From a virus: a stretch of DNA of 64,000 nt. The notes under the pieces are model-generated. The model made no database searches, was not told the DNA's origin, and worked only from the letters and a program-made list of their open reading frames with translations. The DNA lies in IMG/VR virus record IMGVR_UViG_3300045988_085724, positions 1 through 64,000 of that record; one strand, written 5' to 3'. The position numbers and the translations under genes were made by a program. How positions within the stretch are numbered: the first letter of the stretch is position 1; the number at the start of each line of letters is the position of its first letter. Below are positions 15,046-33,150 of this stretch, piece after piece.

Positions 15046-18000
15046 TTAATTTCCTCCTTTACAATATTTTTTCATTTCTTTAGCTTCTTTCATATCTTCG
15101 TCGCTAAACAATTCAAGCTGATTTATATTATCAAATGTAGAATCTACCGACATTAAATCAGACAAATCATATTTATCAGTTTCAAGAGTTAATTGGAATT
15201 CGTCGTATAGACCATGAATATATTCTGCTAAAGTTCTATACATGTTTAAATACTATTTATGATTCATCATAAAGTTATAGTCTGACAAGAATTTTTTATC
15301 TACTACTACACCTATTTTATTGTAGATTTCGTAGCCATATCCCAAATAACCTCCATCAAAGTAATGCTCCATAATTTCGCCTGCAGTTTCATTAACAGCC
15401 TTTAATTCTTTTATAAGATTTTCAACTTCTTCTTGTGACATGATAATAGTTCCTTTGATATTAGCAGCATCGTTATTGTGTTTAGTTAATGCGTACAAAG
15501 CGTTCAATAAATCTCTTTCTGATAAATTATTATCTTTCATAACATCAAACAGATCACTATCTTCATCTACATGTATATGTAATTTCTGTATTACTTGACT
15601 AGCGGAATCTTTACCAATCCTACTGGTAGTATAACCTATATCAAAATACTTCTATATTACATCTATGTATTCCTGATAGTTCTTGGCTATTTTTTTAATA
15701 GTTGGCTTATTCAAACCAGAATCTGTAAATCTATTCTGCTTGAGTGTACCATCCTCATTATAATAATTTAACATTCTATCTGTATTATGATGAGCATAAC
15801 AGTATACGCAAGAAGACGCACAATTACTGTTGTATCTTAATAAGTCAGTTTTTCCACCATAACAAGCACATTCTGGTCTAAAGTTATTGTTTCCAGTAAG
15901 TTTATTTGGTATATGTGTGCCTAACATCTTATTAATTGCATTTACACTTAGACATCCTTCTATACTTATACCATCCATTCTACAAGGCTCGGCACATGAT
16001 GATAAATCTAAATTATATTTCTTGGCGATGCTTAACATTTGTCTTGCAATGCCTTCTATTACTTCTTTTTTAGCATGCGTAAAGTAGAATCCAGAGCTGT
16101 TTCTATCGAAATATTTCGAATAATCATATCCAAGTTTTTCCATAAATTGAGCTGTAGTTTTATAATAATCTAATACAGAAAATCTTACGTGTTTTAGTCC
16201 TAATTCACTAGCACGTTTCATTAGACTATCTACTTCAGTCATATTAGTAACACCAGGAACGATTGGGTCTATTCTCAATGTAACATATTCTGGATCTAAT
16301 CCTTGTTTTATGAAATCACCAATGCGCTCAATCATGTCTTGCCATTTCATAACGCCAGGCTCCCATTTAGTATTACCAAGTGTAGTAACACTAAAATGAA
16401 TAATTTTAGGTTTATCCAACTATAATAACTCTTTCATTGGAAGTCCGTCATGTTTGGTTATTAAATATAAAGCATCAATATCCTCATACTTAATCGGATT
16501 TTGCTTATAATCTAAGAATTCATGACTTCCTTTTGCCCAATCCTATATCATCTTTGAGAAGAATGCAGGATCTGTATGTTCGGATGCAACAGCGATTCTA
16601 GGTTTAGTATCATTTCCAGTAAACGGATGTAGCGCAAGTATTTCTGCATTAGTTAATATAGTTTTATTAGAATTTAATGTAGAAACTTGTTCTGAAATAG
16701 TTCCAAATTGATCTGTATCATGCTGATTTAGTGGGCCATTTAATGTTGCTTTAGTAGCATCTTTATCAACATGTTTATACAATTCTTGTACTTTCTGTTT
16801 TAGATATTGATATAACTTAGGTGTTCTAGTTATAGTAATATTAGAAATACCAGAGTTAAAGAATCCATCTGCTCCACCAATAGCTAATCTTTCATAGTTA
16901 CCAGTATCCCATTTATCCATAATATCTTGTATCTCCTGGTCAATTACTTTCTTGAATTCAGCAAAATCATTATCAGTCCATCTACCTTTTTCACGCTTAT
17001 ATTCGCCATGGAACCAACGCTGTGTACTTAACGGCATAGCATTGTCCAGTCCACGTATAGTAGCTTGAGTTACTGTAGGATAATGTTTATCTTTACCATA
17101 TTTCTTAGCGTATTCAGAATTCGGATCTATTAATTTACTGCCACTATCTCTATCTGTATTATCTGTAAATATATATAACGTTTTTCTATCGTTCTCTACA
17201 GCTTGTCTAGTATATAATCTGGTTATAAATATCTTAGATGATACTGGTGGACGTAACGAAGCAAATTCATCTCTAATCTTAGTAAGAATTCTGCTAAATC
17301 TACCATTATCTTCTTCTTTTCCATCTCTACCGATATGTGTAATCTAACGATCTCCTGTTGATACCAATTCTTCTCTAGCAGATTCATTTTGTTCAAAAGA
17401 TCTACGCATCAAATCTTCAAGTATATCATCAGATATCTTATCCCATTCTGTAACATTTAAACCTTGTATACTTTGTCCTATCTTACGTGCTTCTGCACCA
17501 GATGCTTTTTGCAAAGCATTTAGTATACGAACGCCTTCATCAGTAAATTTAGTAATCTTTCCACTACTGTCACGAATTATATACTTAAGTCCGTTTGTAT
17601 ACCATAATTTACATGCCTAGAACGCTCCTTCTACAGTCTTAAATTCTCCTATACGTGTAGTAAACGGTCGCTGTGCAAAATTACTTAATGCTATGTTATC
17701 ACCAGTACCATAATATACATTAACAGGGCCTGTTTGTTGTGGCTATTGTTCAGGTGCAGAATCTATAGGATTGATATTTTCTGCAGGCATTCCTACATAA
17801 ACTTTTGCTATTGCATCAGATAATTCAGGTAACCTAGTTTTAAGGTCATCTAATCGTATAATGTTAGAGTTTAGATAATCTATAACTCTATTAATACCTG
17901 CGGTATAATCAAAGTTTGCATATTCAATACGTTCATTTTCTGCGTAATTAAAATGCCATCCATATTCATATATGTTGTTCCGTTTATCTGAGCTGGTATA

Positions 18001-21000
18001 ACCTTTTCTACTACAACGAACATATACAGGATAACCATATGTCTTGGAATCTTCATTCACAGTTATTGTATACGCCAAACGATATGCTACATAATCACTT
18101 GCATTTCTGCCACTTCGTCCTGGTACGACTGTTGTTATGAAAGTTGGCAAGTTTGTCATATCTGTAACTCTAGCTCCTATTGCAATAGTTTTATTGATTT
18201 TTATGAAATTAGAAGAACCGTCTTTATTTTGCATATTGACTCTTCTTGAGAACTTATAATCCTAATAATGATTAGCAATAATTTCTTCAAGATACTGATC
18301 CATCGTAGTCAACATAAACGATTCATCAGAAAGTTGTGTTCTTATATAATCAGCAAAACTATTCATATTATTAGGTATATCTCCAATTTGACCAGTACGC
18401 CATGATTCTGGCACATATTTAAACAACTTATTCCATCCAGAATACTCTCCGGTAGATAAGAACGAATATACGATCAAATCTTTTGCAAAATTTTGCACAT
18501 TTACATCTGGGTCACGTAATAGATCTTCCCAAGCATCCTTCATCAACTTAGTATTTAATCTACTATCTTCAATACTATCAGATATTGATAAGAATGCCGG
18601 CCTCATTACTTCTTTCCCATCAACATATACCGATTGTTCTTCAGGCAGTGCATATAAATGTGTAAGCAATTGGTTATCCTTTAGTCTTGCATATTTCGGA
18701 TTATTTCTAATTGCATCCCACAACATACTAAATCTATGATTCATGCACCAGTTACCGATGAATAGATTAGTTAGGTCTTGATCAGTTTTGCCTAGTACAC
18801 GTTTAGCATAGTCTACGATATACATAGATTTGATACGAGTCTACAAAGCTAAGCTAACTTCATTCATTAAATCAGTATTTAACGACGAATCGGTCCCTTG
18901 CAATGCTCTAGTTATTGGCAATACAAGATTGTTAATAAACGTTCTATTTGCATTGAACATCTGTGCGCCAAGTACTTTAAACGGATAATTGCAAGCATCT
19001 TTTGTCTTAGAATCAATCCACGTGTTTTGCACTAATCGCTATATTGAATCCAAATCCCACAATGACTTTTCATCTGTAGTAAGCTTAGTGTACTGATCAA
19101 GATATCGCTACATTTCAAGGAATGTTTTTCCTTCTTTCTTTGTATCAATTTTTGTATATTGTACCAACATATTTAATGCTAAAGAATATTTCTCGAGAGT
19201 CTTCCATGCATAAAATACATTCTTTTGTACACTTTTTACATCATACTATACGCCGTCTACAGTTACTATATTAGCTCCTGGATTTATTGCAATCTACTTC
19301 AATACCTCTTGGTTATTCCGGATGAAATTTACAGCATTTATTCTTGTATTAAGATTAGTAGGAGAAGATTCAATATACTTTTTAAGATTAGATTCGCTCG
19401 CTTCTTCTTTACTTAAATACTGAAGTACTGATTGTGCAACAGCGTCTTTTTGTGCAGCATATACAGAACTATATTTAGATACATCTCTAGAGAATTGACT
19501 CTCGGCATTACTGCTTGCAGTAGCCATATCTCTAATGATCGGTTGTGCTATGAACCACATACCTGCTTCTCCGTATCCACTACGAACCAATAAGTTAACC
19601 ATATTATATGTAAACTTATCGATACCCATTCTAGATACCCACGGGTCTTTTACAATATCTACGTGTGCATTAATAAATGCAGAAATCCAAGACGATATTG
19701 CATTTCCATCATAATCAACTAGTTTATCAAAATTAAATATACCAGTAGCTCTACTAAATTCAGTATCTCTGAATCTCACTCCAAACAAGCATGTTAATAC
19801 ATGGTTAGTTACATTAAGAGCAAATGGACCAATACCGAACTTACCTGTAATGTAGTCAAGTCGTCGTTCAGCTTGTTCATGTAGCGTTCCGAAGTTGTAT
19901 GCCAAATATTTAGTTGAACTAGATACTGGAATTTGATCTGCAATAGATTTAGCAAGAGTAGTGTCATTATCAATTGACTTAAACAGTGAATTAATTGAAT
20001 TTTCTGTATCTTTCAATAGCGTCATCATGCAATCGAGCAATTTGTTCTGATAAGCTTCTTTACTTTCACCGTCAACTACTTCATGAACATTTCCGTTTTC
20101 GTCAGTTTGATAGTTATAGCTTGCTAAATATAAGTGATCTATATCAAAATCCGAACCAGTAATTTTCGTAAATTCTTCTGGCAGAATAATTGTACTCTTC
20201 ACCGTTTCAATTACATCTATAAAACGTAATGCATGTATAGAAGATTGGGCCTGTGTAGGAATACGATAACCTATTGTATTTGCTTTAGCATTTTCTCCAA
20301 TGATATTGTTGTCAATAAGCCATTGACGTTTTTGTTCAAATGACATAGGACGCTTTGGCAAAATATAATCGAAATAATCTATAGATATCACAGCATCCAT
20401 AGAATGATCTTCATTGATCATCTATAACTTCTTTCCATTATACTTATTCGCACCTTGGATACTTCCACCTTCTGTAGCTGAATTTTCCATTGCAAATACA
20501 GAGCGCTGTACAAACGAATTACCTGGTGTAGGAATATTTACAATAGCTTTGTTAATCGCAGATATAAAGATACTTTCTATCCATGAAGAATCCTATGTAG
20601 CTGCAATTGGACAACTAATCTAACCGTCATTATTTAACTACAGTGCTTCAAGCAATCCTTTATCAGCATCTCTAGAAGTTAATTGATCAAGTAAATATGC
20701 AGATAGTTTCTTTTGGTCTAATTTTCCATCAGTAAAGAACTTATCGTCAAACTCTTTTACACCAAGTCTTTCTAATTTATTAATAGCACCCATATATTCT
20801 GACAAAATAGTTTTGCCATCAATAGGCTTTCCAGTACGAGAATCAATGTAGTTATCTCTAAACAAACGTAAGTTCTGAAGTACGATCTTAATCATCTGTG
20901 TACCGATATTTGCAAATTCACCCTCTTCTGGATCAGTATTAAGCTGTCGTCTTAAGAATGTGAAATCCTGTTCGTACACATTAAATGGTTCATTTATAGC

Positions 21001-33000: not shown

Positions 33001-33150
33001 ATTTTGAGTTTTTATCCACTCTTCCAGCTATTTCTTTTTCTTTTCACGCTCCATATCACTTGCAAAAGCCGGTTGAATATATCCATCTTTTATAGGTGCT
33101 TTTAGTGGAGCATAGTAGGCTCTTGGTCCTTTATAACTAATTGTTGCCAT
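15046..33150 (-). CDS. Giant 6034-aa protein, 62 in-frame TAG codons; contains a two-barrel virion RNA polymerase signature (DFDID), a zincin-like HEAFH motif and a C-terminal DUF1848-like CxxxCxxC domain
   Basis: All 29 track fragments share one frame. I codon-split every inter-fragment gap and found 62 TAG, with no TAA or TGA, between ATG 33150 and TAA 15046.

Motif positions:
- GSDFDIDH at 20137-20151;
- YHEAFH at 25054-25068;
- CASSCVYC at 15799-15822. Confidence 0.8.

What the first reader, a model, noticed from the sequence alone, without database searches (positions are those of the whole stretch)
15046..33150. A single 18.1-kb ORF (6034 aa, 62 TAG codons) fuses the virion RNA-polymerase module with other domains
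No TAA or TGA occurs in this frame between ATG 33150 and TAA 15046. Every gap was checked codon by codon, so the sequence supports one polypeptide of about 6000 aa.

It carries GSDFDIDH (20137-20151), which matches the DxDxD metal-binding loop of two-barrel RNAPs. That loop is established for the virion-packaged RNAP of crAss-like phages. It also carries a zincin-like HEAFH motif, long Lys/Glu coiled-coil regions and a DUF1848-like C-terminus.

From memory, described crAss-like phages split these functions over several genes of about 1500-2500 aa. A fusion of this size would be unusual, and it depends entirely on 62 suppression events.
Basis: partly seen in the sequence, partly recalled or inferred. 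Interest (0 to 1): 0.8.

Follow-up and report, generated by a model that had tools for sequence, protein, structure and literature searches.

The report
Giant crAss-like virion RNA polymerase gene
This 18.1-kb reading frame is a real single gene for a ~685-kDa virion RNA-polymerase polyprotein of a crAss-like gut phage that reads TAG as glutamine, but genes like it are a published, already-annotated hallmark of this phage family, so it is not a new kind of thing.

Summary
Window 15046-33150 (minus strand) is one frame of 6,034 sense codons with 62 TAG and no internal TAA/TGA.

TAG is a Gln sense codon throughout the late-gene block. The window is a close relative (93% aa over this gene) of RefSeq phage cr131_1 (Suoliviridae, Oafivirinae).

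The protein has three parts:
- a gp47/gp65-like N-terminal part with an invariant HExxH...E zincin signature;
- a two-barrel virion RNA polymerase (profile vs PDB 6VR4, E 6e-88);
- a ~950-aa tail carrying NADAR, DUF7831 and radical-SAM-like DUF1848 modules.

The claim that this is unusual fails. Homologous single CDSs of 5,801 and 6,386 aa are annotated in RefSeq. At least 30 distinct 50%-identity clusters of 5,000-6,939-aa proteins carry both the zincin and RNAP motifs. The literature already describes "~6000 aa" RNAP genes and "a single huge polyprotein".

Three points are new only in detail:
- The window is an intron-less allele. Most relatives, including cr131_1, carry a group I intron inside the DFDID catalytic codons.
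- The C-terminal enzyme modules are shuffled and exchanged between divergent phages.
- RefSeq mis-splits the cr131_1 gene into three CDSs.

Verdict: real and correctly read, but a new member of a known kind, of low-to-moderate interest.

The parts
15046..33150 (-). Giant ORF: 6,034 aa plus TAA stop, 62 TAG (Gln) codons, predicted ~685 kDa
24511..33150 (-). N-terminal module (aa 1-~2880), homologous to PhiCrAss001-type gp47 / phi14:2 gp65-type cargo protein. Includes a K/E/R/D/Q-rich stretch at aa 25-153 (32692-33078) and one hydrophobic 19-mer at aa 485-503 (31642-31698). The boundary at ~2880 is approximate.
   Evidence: phmmer gp47-like vs giant, E 8.4e-10; hydropathy and charge scan; collinear with cr130_1 and cr272_1
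24634..25449 (-). Zincin-like segment (aa 2568-2839): HEAFH at 25054-25068 (H2695, E2696, H2699) and Glu2732 at 24955-24957
   Evidence: H, E, H and E are the only nearly invariant columns in a 42-sequence alignment. AF2 model pLDDT 80.9. Motif conserved in 6 giants and in the gp47-like protein. No significant PDB fold hit; weak hits to polyvalent-protein domain and M48 in the viral library.
17926..24510 (-). RNAP protein module (aa ~2881-5075), equivalent to PhiCrAss001-type gp50 / phi14:2 gp66. The core matched to the solved structure is aa ~3880-5040 (18031-21513).
   Evidence: profile A1 vs PDB 6VR4, E 6.4e-88, gp66 residues 970-1266 and 1331-2162; phmmer gp50-like, E 4.5e-17
20137..20151 (-). 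DFDID catalytic metal-binding motif (aa 4334-4338). In cr131_1 and most relatives a group I intron sits between D4334 and F4335 (window 20149|20148); the window has none.
17338..17700 (-). NADAR-like module (aa 5151-5271). A TAG codon encodes the motif Gln in EGAF-Q-ACK (motif at 17608-17631).
   Evidence: Pfam PF08719, E 2.5e-8, 34.8 bits against a cutoff of 35.1; PHROG 1017 and 652, E ~1e-11; homologue model matches YbiA 2B3W and NADAR 8BAU
16795..17223 (-). DUF7831 module (aa 5310-5452), function unknown
   Evidence: Pfam PF25176, 30.6 bits against a cutoff of 27; the homologous module of P0084 (residues ~55-215) is modelled with pLDDT mostly 76-93 per 10-residue block
15700..16653 (-). DUF1848 cassette (aa ~5500-5817; Pfam match aa 5549-5786) with a CX3CX2C cluster CASSCVYC at 15799-15822. 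Absent from cr131_1 and cr130_1, present in cr272_1.
   Evidence: Pfam PF08902, 85.5 bits; indel mapping; 92-94% identical cassette in phages whose RNAP core end is ~50% identical; homologue model resembles spore photoproduct lyase
15049..15699 (-). Recurrent extreme C-terminal module (aa 5818-6034), function unknown
   Evidence: present at the C-terminus of most relatives whatever the enzyme cassettes
8552..15043 (-). Separate downstream gene (2,163 aa, 28 TAG), gp49-like RNAP-associated cargo protein. Its ATG lies 2 nt after the giant's TAA.
33158..41635 (-). Upstream late genes in synteny with the crAss cargo and virion genes (604-, 732- and 1,595-aa stop-to-stop ORFs with 9, 14 and 23 TAG). 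The homologue of the 1,595-aa ORF is annotated 'virion structural protein' in cr131_1.

Best explanation
The ORF is one late gene of a Suoliviridae (Oafivirinae, Cacepaovirus-like) crAss-like phage that translates TAG as glutamine. It encodes a ~685-kDa virion cargo polyprotein in three parts. (i) A ~2,900-aa part homologous to the PhiCrAss001 gp47 / phi14:2 gp65-type protein, with a gluzincin-type HExxH...E site. (ii) A ~2,200-aa two-barrel virion RNA polymerase homologous to phi14:2 gp66. (iii) A ~950-aa variable tail of nucleic-acid-directed enzyme modules (NADAR, DUF7831, radical-SAM-like DUF1848) ending in a recurrent C-terminal module. SHOWN: the frame is continuous, under purifying selection and collinear with single-ORF homologues; TAG stands for Gln; the RNAP homology holds; the zincin signature is invariant; the tail modules are present. 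INFERRED from characterised relatives: full-length translation needs a phage tRNA(CUA), which is encoded in the closest relative outside the span of this window, and this confines synthesis to late infection. The product is packaged in the capsid and ejected with or ahead of the DNA, and there it transcribes the early genes. The nearly TAG-free plus-strand genes at window 1-8440 are this window's candidates for that early set. The chain may be cut into functional pieces, possibly by its own zincin domain. The tail enzymes would act on DNA or RNA at the moment of entry.
For: Frame and chance. TAG recoding across the whole minus-strand block (1.22% of late codons against 0.14% of early codons; all genes end in TAA or TGA). 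TAG = Gln: of 16 window TAGs that differ from cr131_1, 10 are CAA/CAG there; shared TAG columns sit at conserved Gln positions (AVKVGS-Q-GAV, WF..-Q-PII as in gp66, NADAR EGAF-Q-ACK). Public gene calls already translate TAG as Q. tRNA(CUA) in cr131_1 at 9258-9330, about 5.6 kb beyond the window's end. One gene: single ORFs of 5,801, 6,386, 4,272 and 4,328 aa in cr130_1, cr272_1, cr114_1 and cr109_1 with 37-74 TAG and no TAA/TGA; alignment collinear over nearly every 200-aa bin; 777 synonymous against 375 non-synonymous codon differences to cr131_1, N/S at most 1.4 in every 500-aa bin and 0.08 at the RNAP centre; TAG spacing random, P = 0.74. RNAP: profile against 6VR4, E 6.4e-88, with TGSDFDID aligned. 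Zincin. Fusion relative to PhiCrAss001-type genes. Virion location and early transcription of homologues: PMC10172136, 10.1101/2020.03.07.982082. Independent assemblies with the same layout.
Against: There are no protein-level data for this phage. Packaging, ejection, polymerase activity and any cleavage are inferred from phi14:2 and PhiCrAss001. The suppressor tRNA is not in the window. The zincin domain has no significant match to any Pfam peptidase model or solved structure. The NADAR match falls 0.3 bits below Pfam's cutoff. The tail structure was modelled on a 55%-identical homologue (P0084), not on the window's own sequence. The efficiency of 62 successive TAG decodings is unknown.
Confidence: 0.85

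Rival explanations
1. Several proteins, not one. Some of the 62 TAGs act as real or leaky stops, or internal starts are used, so the locus yields separate gp47-like, RNAP and tail proteins at the translation level.
For: PhiCrAss001-type phages do encode the gp47-like and gp50-like parts as separate genes, on opposite strands. One TAG lies at aa 5136, close to the start of the tail. Before the suppressor tRNA accumulates, TAG would terminate translation.
Against: TAG positions are not conserved: 7 of 62 are shared with cr130_1 and 1 with cr272_1. The shared ones lie inside conserved motifs at Gln positions, not at module junctions. TAG density is even across modules (0.67-1.37 per 100 aa) and the spacing is random. 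All six homologues keep one frame with no TAA/TGA over 4,272-6,386 codons. The genes listed all end in TAA or TGA.
Confidence: 0.07
2. One translation product that is a true polyprotein. It is cleaved, by its own zincin domain or by a capsid protease, into separate gp47-like, RNAP and effector proteins, so no ~685-kDa chain exists in the mature virion.
For: Drobysheva et al. propose exactly this for fused forms. The HExxH...E site is invariant. Polyvalent proteins are thought to release their domains through embedded metallopeptidases (PMC5512222). The zincin model weakly resembles polyvalent-protein domains.
Against: No cleavage sites can be identified from sequence. The zincin domain could equally digest peptidoglycan or activate the RNAP. 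This is a refinement of the best explanation and does not contradict it; the gene-level conclusion is the same.
Confidence: 0.4
3. Assembly artefact or decaying pseudogene: the long frame is a chimera of several genes, or is no longer under selection.
For: The sequence is metagenome-derived, and the closest RefSeq record annotates three CDSs at this locus.
Against: The three CDSs of cr131_1 are explained by a group I intron with a LAGLIDADG ORF. Removing it restores one in-frame 5,735-aa ORF. The window is collinear with cr131_1 except for that intron, the DUF1848 cassette and one poorly matching stretch at ORF nt ~985-1254. Independent ENA and Logan assemblies show the same layout. There is a strong excess of synonymous changes.
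Confidence: 0.02

Closest known systems
uncultured phage cr131_1 (NC_055902, Cacepaovirus simiae) gp50 + gp49 + gp48
   Same: Same locus and synteny. 93% aa identity over aa 1-5499. Same zincin, RNAP, NADAR, DUF7831 and C-terminal modules. TAG recoded, with 46 of 62 TAG positions shared.
   Different: cr131_1 carries a 911-nt group I intron with a LAGLIDADG ORF inside GSD|FDIDH, and RefSeq therefore splits the gene into three CDSs. It lacks the DUF1848 cassette and has a 20-aa linker in its place. The window is intron-less and has the cassette.
cr130_1 YP_010113266 (5,801 aa) and cr272_1 YP_010113476 (6,386 aa), Oafivirinae; cr114_1 (4,272 aa) and cr109_1 (4,328 aa), other Suoliviridae
   Same: Annotated single CDSs, collinear, with HEA[FW]H and DFDID in one chain and 37-74 in-frame TAG.
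   Different: 23-43% identity in the collinear blastp alignments (higher in the RNAP core). Different tail composition: cr130_1 lacks DUF1848, and cr114_1 and cr109_1 show none of the window's tail modules. Shorter N-terminal parts in cr114_1 and cr109_1.
Cellulophaga phage phi14:2 gp66 virion RNAP (PDB 6VR4) with neighbouring gp65 (zincin) and gp67
   Same: Two-DPBB RNAP with a TGSDFDID loop; profile E 6.4e-88 over gp66 970-2162. In phi14:2 the protein is virion-packaged and transcribes early genes.
   Different: There the zincin protein and the RNAP are separate genes (gp66 is 2,180 aa), with the standard code and no enzyme tail described.
PhiCrAss001 gp47 / gp49 / gp50 RNAP-associated cargo proteins
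   Same: Homologous parts: the gp47-like protein matches the zincin region, the gp50-like protein matches the RNAP, and the gp49-like protein matches the window's downstream 2,163-aa gene. All three were detected in virions.
   Different: Three genes, with gp47 on the opposite strand to gp49 and gp50. Here the gp47-like and gp50-like parts are one chain plus a ~950-aa tail.
Other giant virion RNAPs: N4-like vRNAP (~3,500 aa) and Thermus phage P23-45 tape-measure-fused RNAP (5,002 aa)
   Same: The same strategy: a very large RNAP-bearing protein is carried in the particle and injected to transcribe the first genes (abstracts of PMC13434306 and PMC10770324).
   Different: Unrelated architectures: N4 has a T7-like single-subunit fold (from my own knowledge, not tested here), and P23-45's RNAP is fused to a tail tape measure. 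They are not homologues of the zincin-RNAP-tail arrangement.
Polyvalent proteins and MuF-fused head effectors (Iyer et al. 2017, PMC5512222; PMC9503650)
   Same: Many enzyme domains on one virion-delivered chain with an embedded metallopeptidase. Relatives' tails contain ART-PolyVal, HD, helicase and DprA domains. The zincin model weakly matches 'large polyvalent protein-associated domain' proteins.
   Different: The searched passages of those papers contain no mention of crAss phages or DUF1848, and PMC5512222 does not mention NADAR. Here the effector array rides on the virion RNAP, not on MuF or the portal.

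Membership tests
crAss-like virion RNA polymerase (phi14:2 gp66 type, two DPBB domains in one chain) | DFDxD catalytic metal-binding motif | tested here: met
   TGSDFDID at aa 4331-4338. F, D and D are nearly invariant in a 37-sequence alignment. The motif aligns to gp66 1361-DFDID-1365.
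crAss-like virion RNA polymerase (phi14:2 gp66 type, two DPBB domains in one chain) | Homology over the polymerase core (both sides of the Connector, bridge helix, trigger loop) to the solved gp66 | tested here: met
   Profile A1 against 6VR4: E 6.4e-88, gp66 970-1266 and 1331-2162. A single-sequence phmmer search found nothing.
crAss-like virion RNA polymerase (phi14:2 gp66 type, two DPBB domains in one chain) | Encoded in the late block next to the other cargo-protein genes | tested here: met
   Synteny with cr131_1, cr130_1 and cr272_1, and a gp49-like gene immediately downstream.
crAss-like virion RNA polymerase (phi14:2 gp66 type, two DPBB domains in one chain) | Present in virions, ejected, transcribes early genes | not testable with these tools
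   Known only for phi14:2 and PhiCrAss001.
Fused zincin-RNAP giant polyprotein of crAss-like phages | HExxH zincin module and DFDxD RNAP in one uninterrupted reading frame, collinear with annotated single CDSs | tested here: met
   30 of 34 library representatives of at least 5,000 aa carry both motifs.
Zincin-like (gluzincin) metallopeptidase | HExxH plus a downstream Glu as third ligand, conserved across homologues | tested here: met
   H2695, E2696, H2699 and E2732 are the only nearly invariant columns of 42 sequences.
Zincin-like (gluzincin) metallopeptidase | Significant match to a curated peptidase family or a solved zincin fold | tested here: inconclusive
   No Pfam peptidase hit. PDB profile best hit is FtsH at E 0.17. 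Foldseek PDB best E 1.5. Viral library: polyvalent-protein domain E 1.9e-3, M48 peptidase E 0.028.
Zincin-like (gluzincin) metallopeptidase | Proteolytic activity or autoprocessing | not testable with these tools
   -
TAG-to-Gln recoded phage late genes (genetic code 15) | In-frame TAG in conserved genes; only TAA or TGA terminate | tested here: met
TAG-to-Gln recoded phage late genes (genetic code 15) | TAG aligns with Gln in homologues | tested here: met
TAG-to-Gln recoded phage late genes (genetic code 15) | Phage-encoded suppressor tRNA(CUA) | tested here: inconclusive
   None in the window. Present in cr131_1 at 9258-9330, which maps about 5.6 kb beyond the window's end.
NADAR (ADP-ribosyl-nucleic-acid glycohydrolase) | Match to the NADAR family model | tested here: inconclusive
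   PF08719, E 2.5e-8, but 34.8 bits against a cutoff of 35.1. PHROG 1017 and 652 at ~1e-11. TIGR02464 at 3e-8, below its cutoff. Homologous tails carry precomputed PF08719 hits.
NADAR (ADP-ribosyl-nucleic-acid glycohydrolase) | NADAR fold | tested here: met
   Tested on homologue P0084 (50% identical in this module): YbiA 2B3W E 4.9e-5, TM 0.64; 8BAU E 7.4e-4. The module's pLDDT was only moderate.
NADAR (ADP-ribosyl-nucleic-acid glycohydrolase) | Hydrolysis of ADP-ribosylated bases / protection from DarT | not testable with these tools
   Shown for T4 AdfN (PMC11825919).
DUF1848 (radical-SAM-like) | Match to PF08902 above its cutoff | tested here: met
   85.5 bits against 30.5, aa 5549-5786.
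DUF1848 (radical-SAM-like) | CX3CX2C cluster and radical-SAM partial TIM-barrel fold | tested here: inconclusive
   CASSCVYC at aa 5777-5784. Homologue model resembles spore photoproduct lyase: prob 1.0 but TM 0.41, E 4e-3. Weak NCBIfam rSAM_PA0069 hit, E 0.0066.
Polyvalent proteins (Iyer et al. 2017) | Multiple conflict-related enzyme domains with an embedded peptidase on one virion- or conjugation-delivered chain | tested here: inconclusive
   The architecture fits, and relatives' tails carry ART-PolyVal, HD, SF1 helicase and DprA domains. The structural link is weak. Delivery was not tested.
Group I intron-interrupted RNAP allele | Group I intron with a homing-endonuclease ORF inside the DFDID codons | tested here: not met
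   Nothing in the window ORF. cr131_1 has it (RF00028, E 8.6e-10 and 2.3e-6, with a LAGLIDADG ORF).

The most novel reading that the evidence does not exclude
The ~950-aa tail behind the RNAP may be a polymorphic, horizontally exchanged array of counter-defence or DNA-repair enzymes. Here it holds NADAR, DUF7831 and radical-SAM DUF1848. In relatives it holds SF1 helicase, ART-PolyVal + HD, DprA, SLOG-like and RNAP-alpha-CTD domains. The array would be physically delivered with the virion RNAP, so it could act on the incoming genome (for example by reversing DarT-type ADP-ribosylation) before any phage gene is expressed. I found no paper linking such effector tails to crAss-like RNAP polyproteins in the searches I ran.
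Probability: 0.35. Interest if true: 0.55.

Novelty: new member of a known kind. Interest (0 to 1): 0.25.

Why it matters
The main value is as a correct reading of a difficult locus. It shows that an apparently stop-riddled 18-kb stretch is one gene under code 15. It shows that the RefSeq relative cr131_1 is mis-annotated as three CDSs because of an unrecognised group I intron in the RNAP active-site codons. It also shows that very large zincin-RNAP polyproteins are the rule in Suoliviridae. The part that could repay experiments is the variable enzyme tail. If NADAR and the radical-SAM module are injected with the polymerase, crAss-like phages would carry pre-made counter-defence on their transcription machine. 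That would help explain their success in Bacteroidales-rich guts. The intron-less allele is also a convenient natural template for expressing the RNAP.

Tried and rejected
1. Single-sequence phmmer of the RNAP region against the PDB found nothing relevant; a 37-sequence profile was needed.
2. Pfam and PHROGs gave no hit in the first 5,000 aa.
3. phmmer and a profile of the tail against the PDB gave nothing.
5. One large alignment failed.
6. The word-indexed homologue search of the zincin region gave only 2 hits; the exhaustive representative search gave 243.
7. The zincin model had no significant PDB neighbour.
9. Yutin et al. 2018 could not be read, so the 'huge polyprotein' statement is cited through Drobysheva et al..
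10. Considered and rejected: TAG as conserved gene boundaries; a hidden intron in the window; misassembly; a suppressor tRNA hidden in the window.
11. The candidate PD-(D/E)xK-like stretch near aa 1700 was looked at only in an alignment and is left unassigned.

Full report
OBSERVATION. The reverse complement of window 15046-33150 is 18,105 nt, which is 6,035 codons. It begins with ATG, ends with TAA, and contains 62 TAG and no internal TAA or TGA. An in-frame TAA lies 5 codons upstream of the ATG. The two other frames of the same stretch contain 268 and 695 TAA/TGA codons, so an open frame of this length is not chance. DFDID is at 20137-20151 and HEAFH at 25054-25068, as reported. The predicted product is 6,034 aa and about 685 kDa.

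TAG IS A SENSE CODON HERE. With TAG read as sense, the minus-strand block from 8552 to the window's end resolves into long, tightly packed ORFs (6,039, 2,169, 1,595, 837 codons and so on). Under the standard code nothing exceeds 510 codons. TAG makes up 1.22% of codons in 12 late genes and 0.14% in the nine plus-strand genes at 836-8440 that were counted. All 21 genes end in TAA or TGA.
- Against the 93%-identical cr131_1 gene, 46 of the window's 62 TAGs are conserved. Of the 16 that changed, 10 became CAA/CAG (Gln), 3 Glu, 1 Asn and 1 Tyr; one faces a gap.
- TAG columns shared with more distant relatives fall inside conserved motifs where other sequences have Gln. AVKVGS-*-GAV aligns with AVKVGSQGAV. 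WF..-*-PII in cr130_1 and cr272_1 aligns with WFIAQPII in the window and FIGQPVL in the solved gp66. EGAF-*-ACK in the window's NADAR module aligns with EGAFQACK in cr131_1.
- Public gene callers already translate these TAGs as Q.
- The window has only a tRNA-Leu(UAA). cr131_1 encodes a tRNA with anticodon CUA at 9258-9330. The window maps to cr131_1 coordinates of about 79.3 kb down to 14.9 kb, so that locus lies about 5.6 kb beyond the window's end.
- Metaproteomic confirmation of TAG-to-Gln in a Suoliviridae phage is reported in the literature (PMC10136315).

IS IT ONE GENE? The window is a close relative of RefSeq NC_055902, uncultured phage cr131_1 (Crassvirales; Suoliviridae; Oafivirinae; Cacepaovirus simiae; macaque faeces).
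- RefSeq annotates three CDSs there (4,372, 242 and 1,401 aa). A DNA comparison shows a 911-nt insertion exactly between the codons of GSD and FDIDH. Its two ends match Rfam group I intron RF00028 (E 8.6e-10 and 2.3e-6). The upstream exon ends in U and the insert ends in G. The middle CDS is a LAGLIDADG endonuclease. Removing the insertion restores one in-frame ORF of 5,735 aa with 64 TAG and no TAA/TGA. So cr131_1 also has one gene, and the window carries the intron-less allele (no intron signal).
- More distant homologues are annotated as single CDSs: cr130_1 at 5,801 aa, cr272_1 at 6,386 aa, cr114_1 at 4,272 aa and cr109_1 at 4,328 aa. Each has 37-74 TAG and no TAA/TGA.
- The alignment with cr130_1 and cr272_1 is collinear, with good coverage in nearly every 200-aa bin.
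- Codon differences to cr131_1 are 777 synonymous against 375 non-synonymous. The raw N/S ratio is at most 1.4 in every 500-aa bin and 0.08 around the catalytic centre.
- TAG positions are hardly conserved in distant relatives (7 shared with cr130_1, 1 with cr272_1). They are evenly spread over the modules and spaced as expected at random, P = 0.74.
- Independent ENA and Logan assemblies of about 94-97 kb show the same layout.

WHAT IT ENCODES.
(a) RNAP. A single-sequence search of the PDB failed. A 37-sequence profile of aa 3880-5079 hits 6VR4, the phi14:2 gp66 virion RNAP, at E 6.4e-88 over gp66 970-1266 and 1331-2162, with the TGSDFDID loops aligned.
(b) Zincin. HEA[FW]H is conserved in all six Suoliviridae giants and in the separate gp47-like protein of a PhiCrAss001-type phage. 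In a 42-sequence alignment the only nearly invariant columns are H2695, E2696, H2699 and E2732, which is a gluzincin signature. The window's own segment models well (pLDDT 80.9, pTM 0.73), with a beta-sheet running into the HExxH helix. It has no significant neighbour in the PDB or in Pfam. It has only weak links to polyvalent-protein domains and M48 in the viral structure library. 'Zincin-like' therefore rests on the motif, the topology and earlier literature.
(c) Relation to split arrangements. By phmmer, the PhiCrAss001-type gp50-like protein (2,412 aa) matches giant aa 3910-4545 (E 4.5e-17). The gp47-like protein (2,341 aa, encoded on the opposite strand there) matches aa 2618-2743 (E 8.4e-10). 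The gp49-like protein matches the window's separate downstream 2,163-aa gene (E 1.1e-7). So the giant is the gp47-like part plus the gp50-like part plus a tail, with the junction near aa 2880 by extrapolation. All three PhiCrAss001 proteins are virion cargo (PMC10172136).
(d) Tail (aa ~5076-6034).
- NADAR, aa 5151-5271: Pfam E 2.5e-8 but 0.3 bits under the cutoff; PHROGs ~1e-11.
- DUF7831, aa 5310-5452.
- DUF1848, aa 5549-5786: 85.5 bits, with a CX3CX2C cluster CASSCVYC.
- A recurrent ~217-aa C-terminal module.
- An AF2 model of the homologue P0084 matched YbiA and NADAR structures for the NADAR module, and spore photoproduct lyase (radical-SAM DNA repair; modest TM 0.41) for DUF1848.

IS THIS UNUSUAL? 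No.
[quoted passage not shown] - Yutin et al. 2021 describe TAG recoding, group I introns and a LAGLIDADG maturase in the transcription gene block.
- An exhaustive HMMER search with the window's zincin segment found 243 cluster representatives. Of the best 150, 88 are at least 3,000 aa, 34 at least 5,000 aa and 6 at least 6,000 aa, with a maximum of 6,939 aa. 30 of the 34 largest carry both HExxH and TG[SA]DFDID.

DETAILS THAT GO BEYOND THE FINDING.
(i) Most relatives (43-98% identical) have called proteins beginning M|FDIDHLYLAS, which is the spurious ATG at the intron's 3' end. Many 3,000-4,400-aa representatives end at ...TGSD or ...TGSDFD. So an intron in the catalytic codons is the common state, at two neighbouring insertion points, and the window's uninterrupted allele is the minority.
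(ii) The tail is modular. NADAR, DUF7831 and DUF1848 are independently present or absent. The DUF1848 cassette (window aa ~5500-5817) is replaced by a 20-aa linker in cr131_1. It is 92-94% identical in P0006, P0008 and P0011, whose adjacent RNAP core end is only ~50% identical. P0084 has the modules in a different order. Other tails carry SF1 helicase, ART-PolyVal + HD, DprA, PF12694, DUF4326, DUF488 or an RNAP alpha-CTD. This pattern resembles polyvalent proteins (PMC5512222) and virion-packaged NADAR/Macro effectors (PMC9503650). Phage NADAR (T4 AdfN) counters DarTG1 (PMC11825919). I found no paper connecting such tails with crAss RNAP proteins.

MECHANISM (best estimate). Shown here: gene continuity, recoding, the modules and their homologies. 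Inferred: late in infection a phage tRNA(CUA) allows translation of the 62-TAG mRNA. The ~685-kDa product, intact or processed and possibly processed by its own zincin site, is packed into the capsid with the other cargo proteins. On infection it is ejected, the RNAP transcribes the early genes (the nearly TAG-free plus-strand genes are this window's candidates), and the tail enzymes act on nucleic acid at entry.

VERDICT. It is a new member (an intron-less allele bearing the DUF1848 cassette) of a known, published and widely annotated kind. Interest 0.25. The only part with discovery potential is the variable effector tail.

Noticed in passing
L001 20003-20913 (NC_055902 60203-61113); corresponds to window 20149|20148: RefSeq cr131_1 annotates the RNAP polyprotein gene as three CDSs (gp50, gp49, gp48). 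The cause is an unrecognised 911-nt group I intron carrying a LAGLIDADG endonuclease ORF, inserted between the codons of GSD and FDIDH. Splicing restores one 5,735-aa ORF.
   Followed up: yes
proteins P0001-P0053 and P0182-P0305: Most relatives carry an interruption at the same catalytic-site position. Exon-2 products start M|FDIDH, and exon-1 products end at ...TGSD or, in another set, at ...TGSDFD. This suggests two neighbouring intron insertion points in the RNAP active-site codons.
   Followed up: partly
window 15700-16653 (aa ~5500-5817): The DUF1848 cassette is 92-94% identical to that of phages whose adjacent RNAP core end is only ~50% identical (P0006, P0008, P0011). It is cleanly replaced by a 20-aa linker in the 93%-identical cr131_1. 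This points to recent cassette-level horizontal exchange within the tail.
   Followed up: partly
proteins P0049, P0080, P0084, P0088-P0092, P0094: Tails of related RNAP polyproteins carry other modules: SF1 (PIF1/UvrD-type) helicase, ART-PolyVal + HD, DprA, PF12694, DUF4326, DUF488 and an RNAP alpha-subunit CTD. Module order also differs: P0084 has DUF7831, then DUF1848, then NADAR.
   Followed up: partly
window 50608-52119 (-): The major capsid protein gene (503 aa, Pfam Crass_capsid) has no TAG codon at all, although it sits in the TAG-recoded late block. It lies in the most GC-rich part of the window (0.41). It is uninterrupted here, whereas cr131_1's capsid gene is split around an HNH endonuclease ORF.
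   Followed up: partly
window 8552-15043 (-): The downstream 2,163-aa gp49-like cargo protein has its own HExxH motif (VMHELLHAITEE). Near its C-terminus it has a hydrophobic stretch followed by a run of six Asp.
   Followed up: no
window 33140-33160 and 15036-15050 (-): The giant gene and the next gene both start in the same context, TAATTATGGCA. Each ATG lies only a few nt after the previous gene's TAA, so the genes are very tightly packed.
   Followed up: no
window 4478-4564 (+); L007 9258-9330; L006 11572-11935: The window's only tRNA is Leu(UAA), among the early genes. The relative cr131_1 also encodes a tRNA(CUA) suppressor, which ARAGORN labels 'Pyl' and RefSeq labels tRNA-Gln. It also has a tmRNA-like gene with tag peptide GNYNVVDYTHVA. 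Both lie outside the region the window covers.
   Followed up: partly
window aa ~1690-1720 of the giant ORF (about 27990-28080): A conserved stretch (EEADIILTNEKGEIRIIDVLSS; cr272_1 has LDILAVNEDGDAILIDVYVT) resembles a PD-(D/E)xK nuclease core. Yutin et al. 2021 mention PDDEXK domains in connection with some phages' large proteins. No profile hit was obtained here.
   Followed up: no
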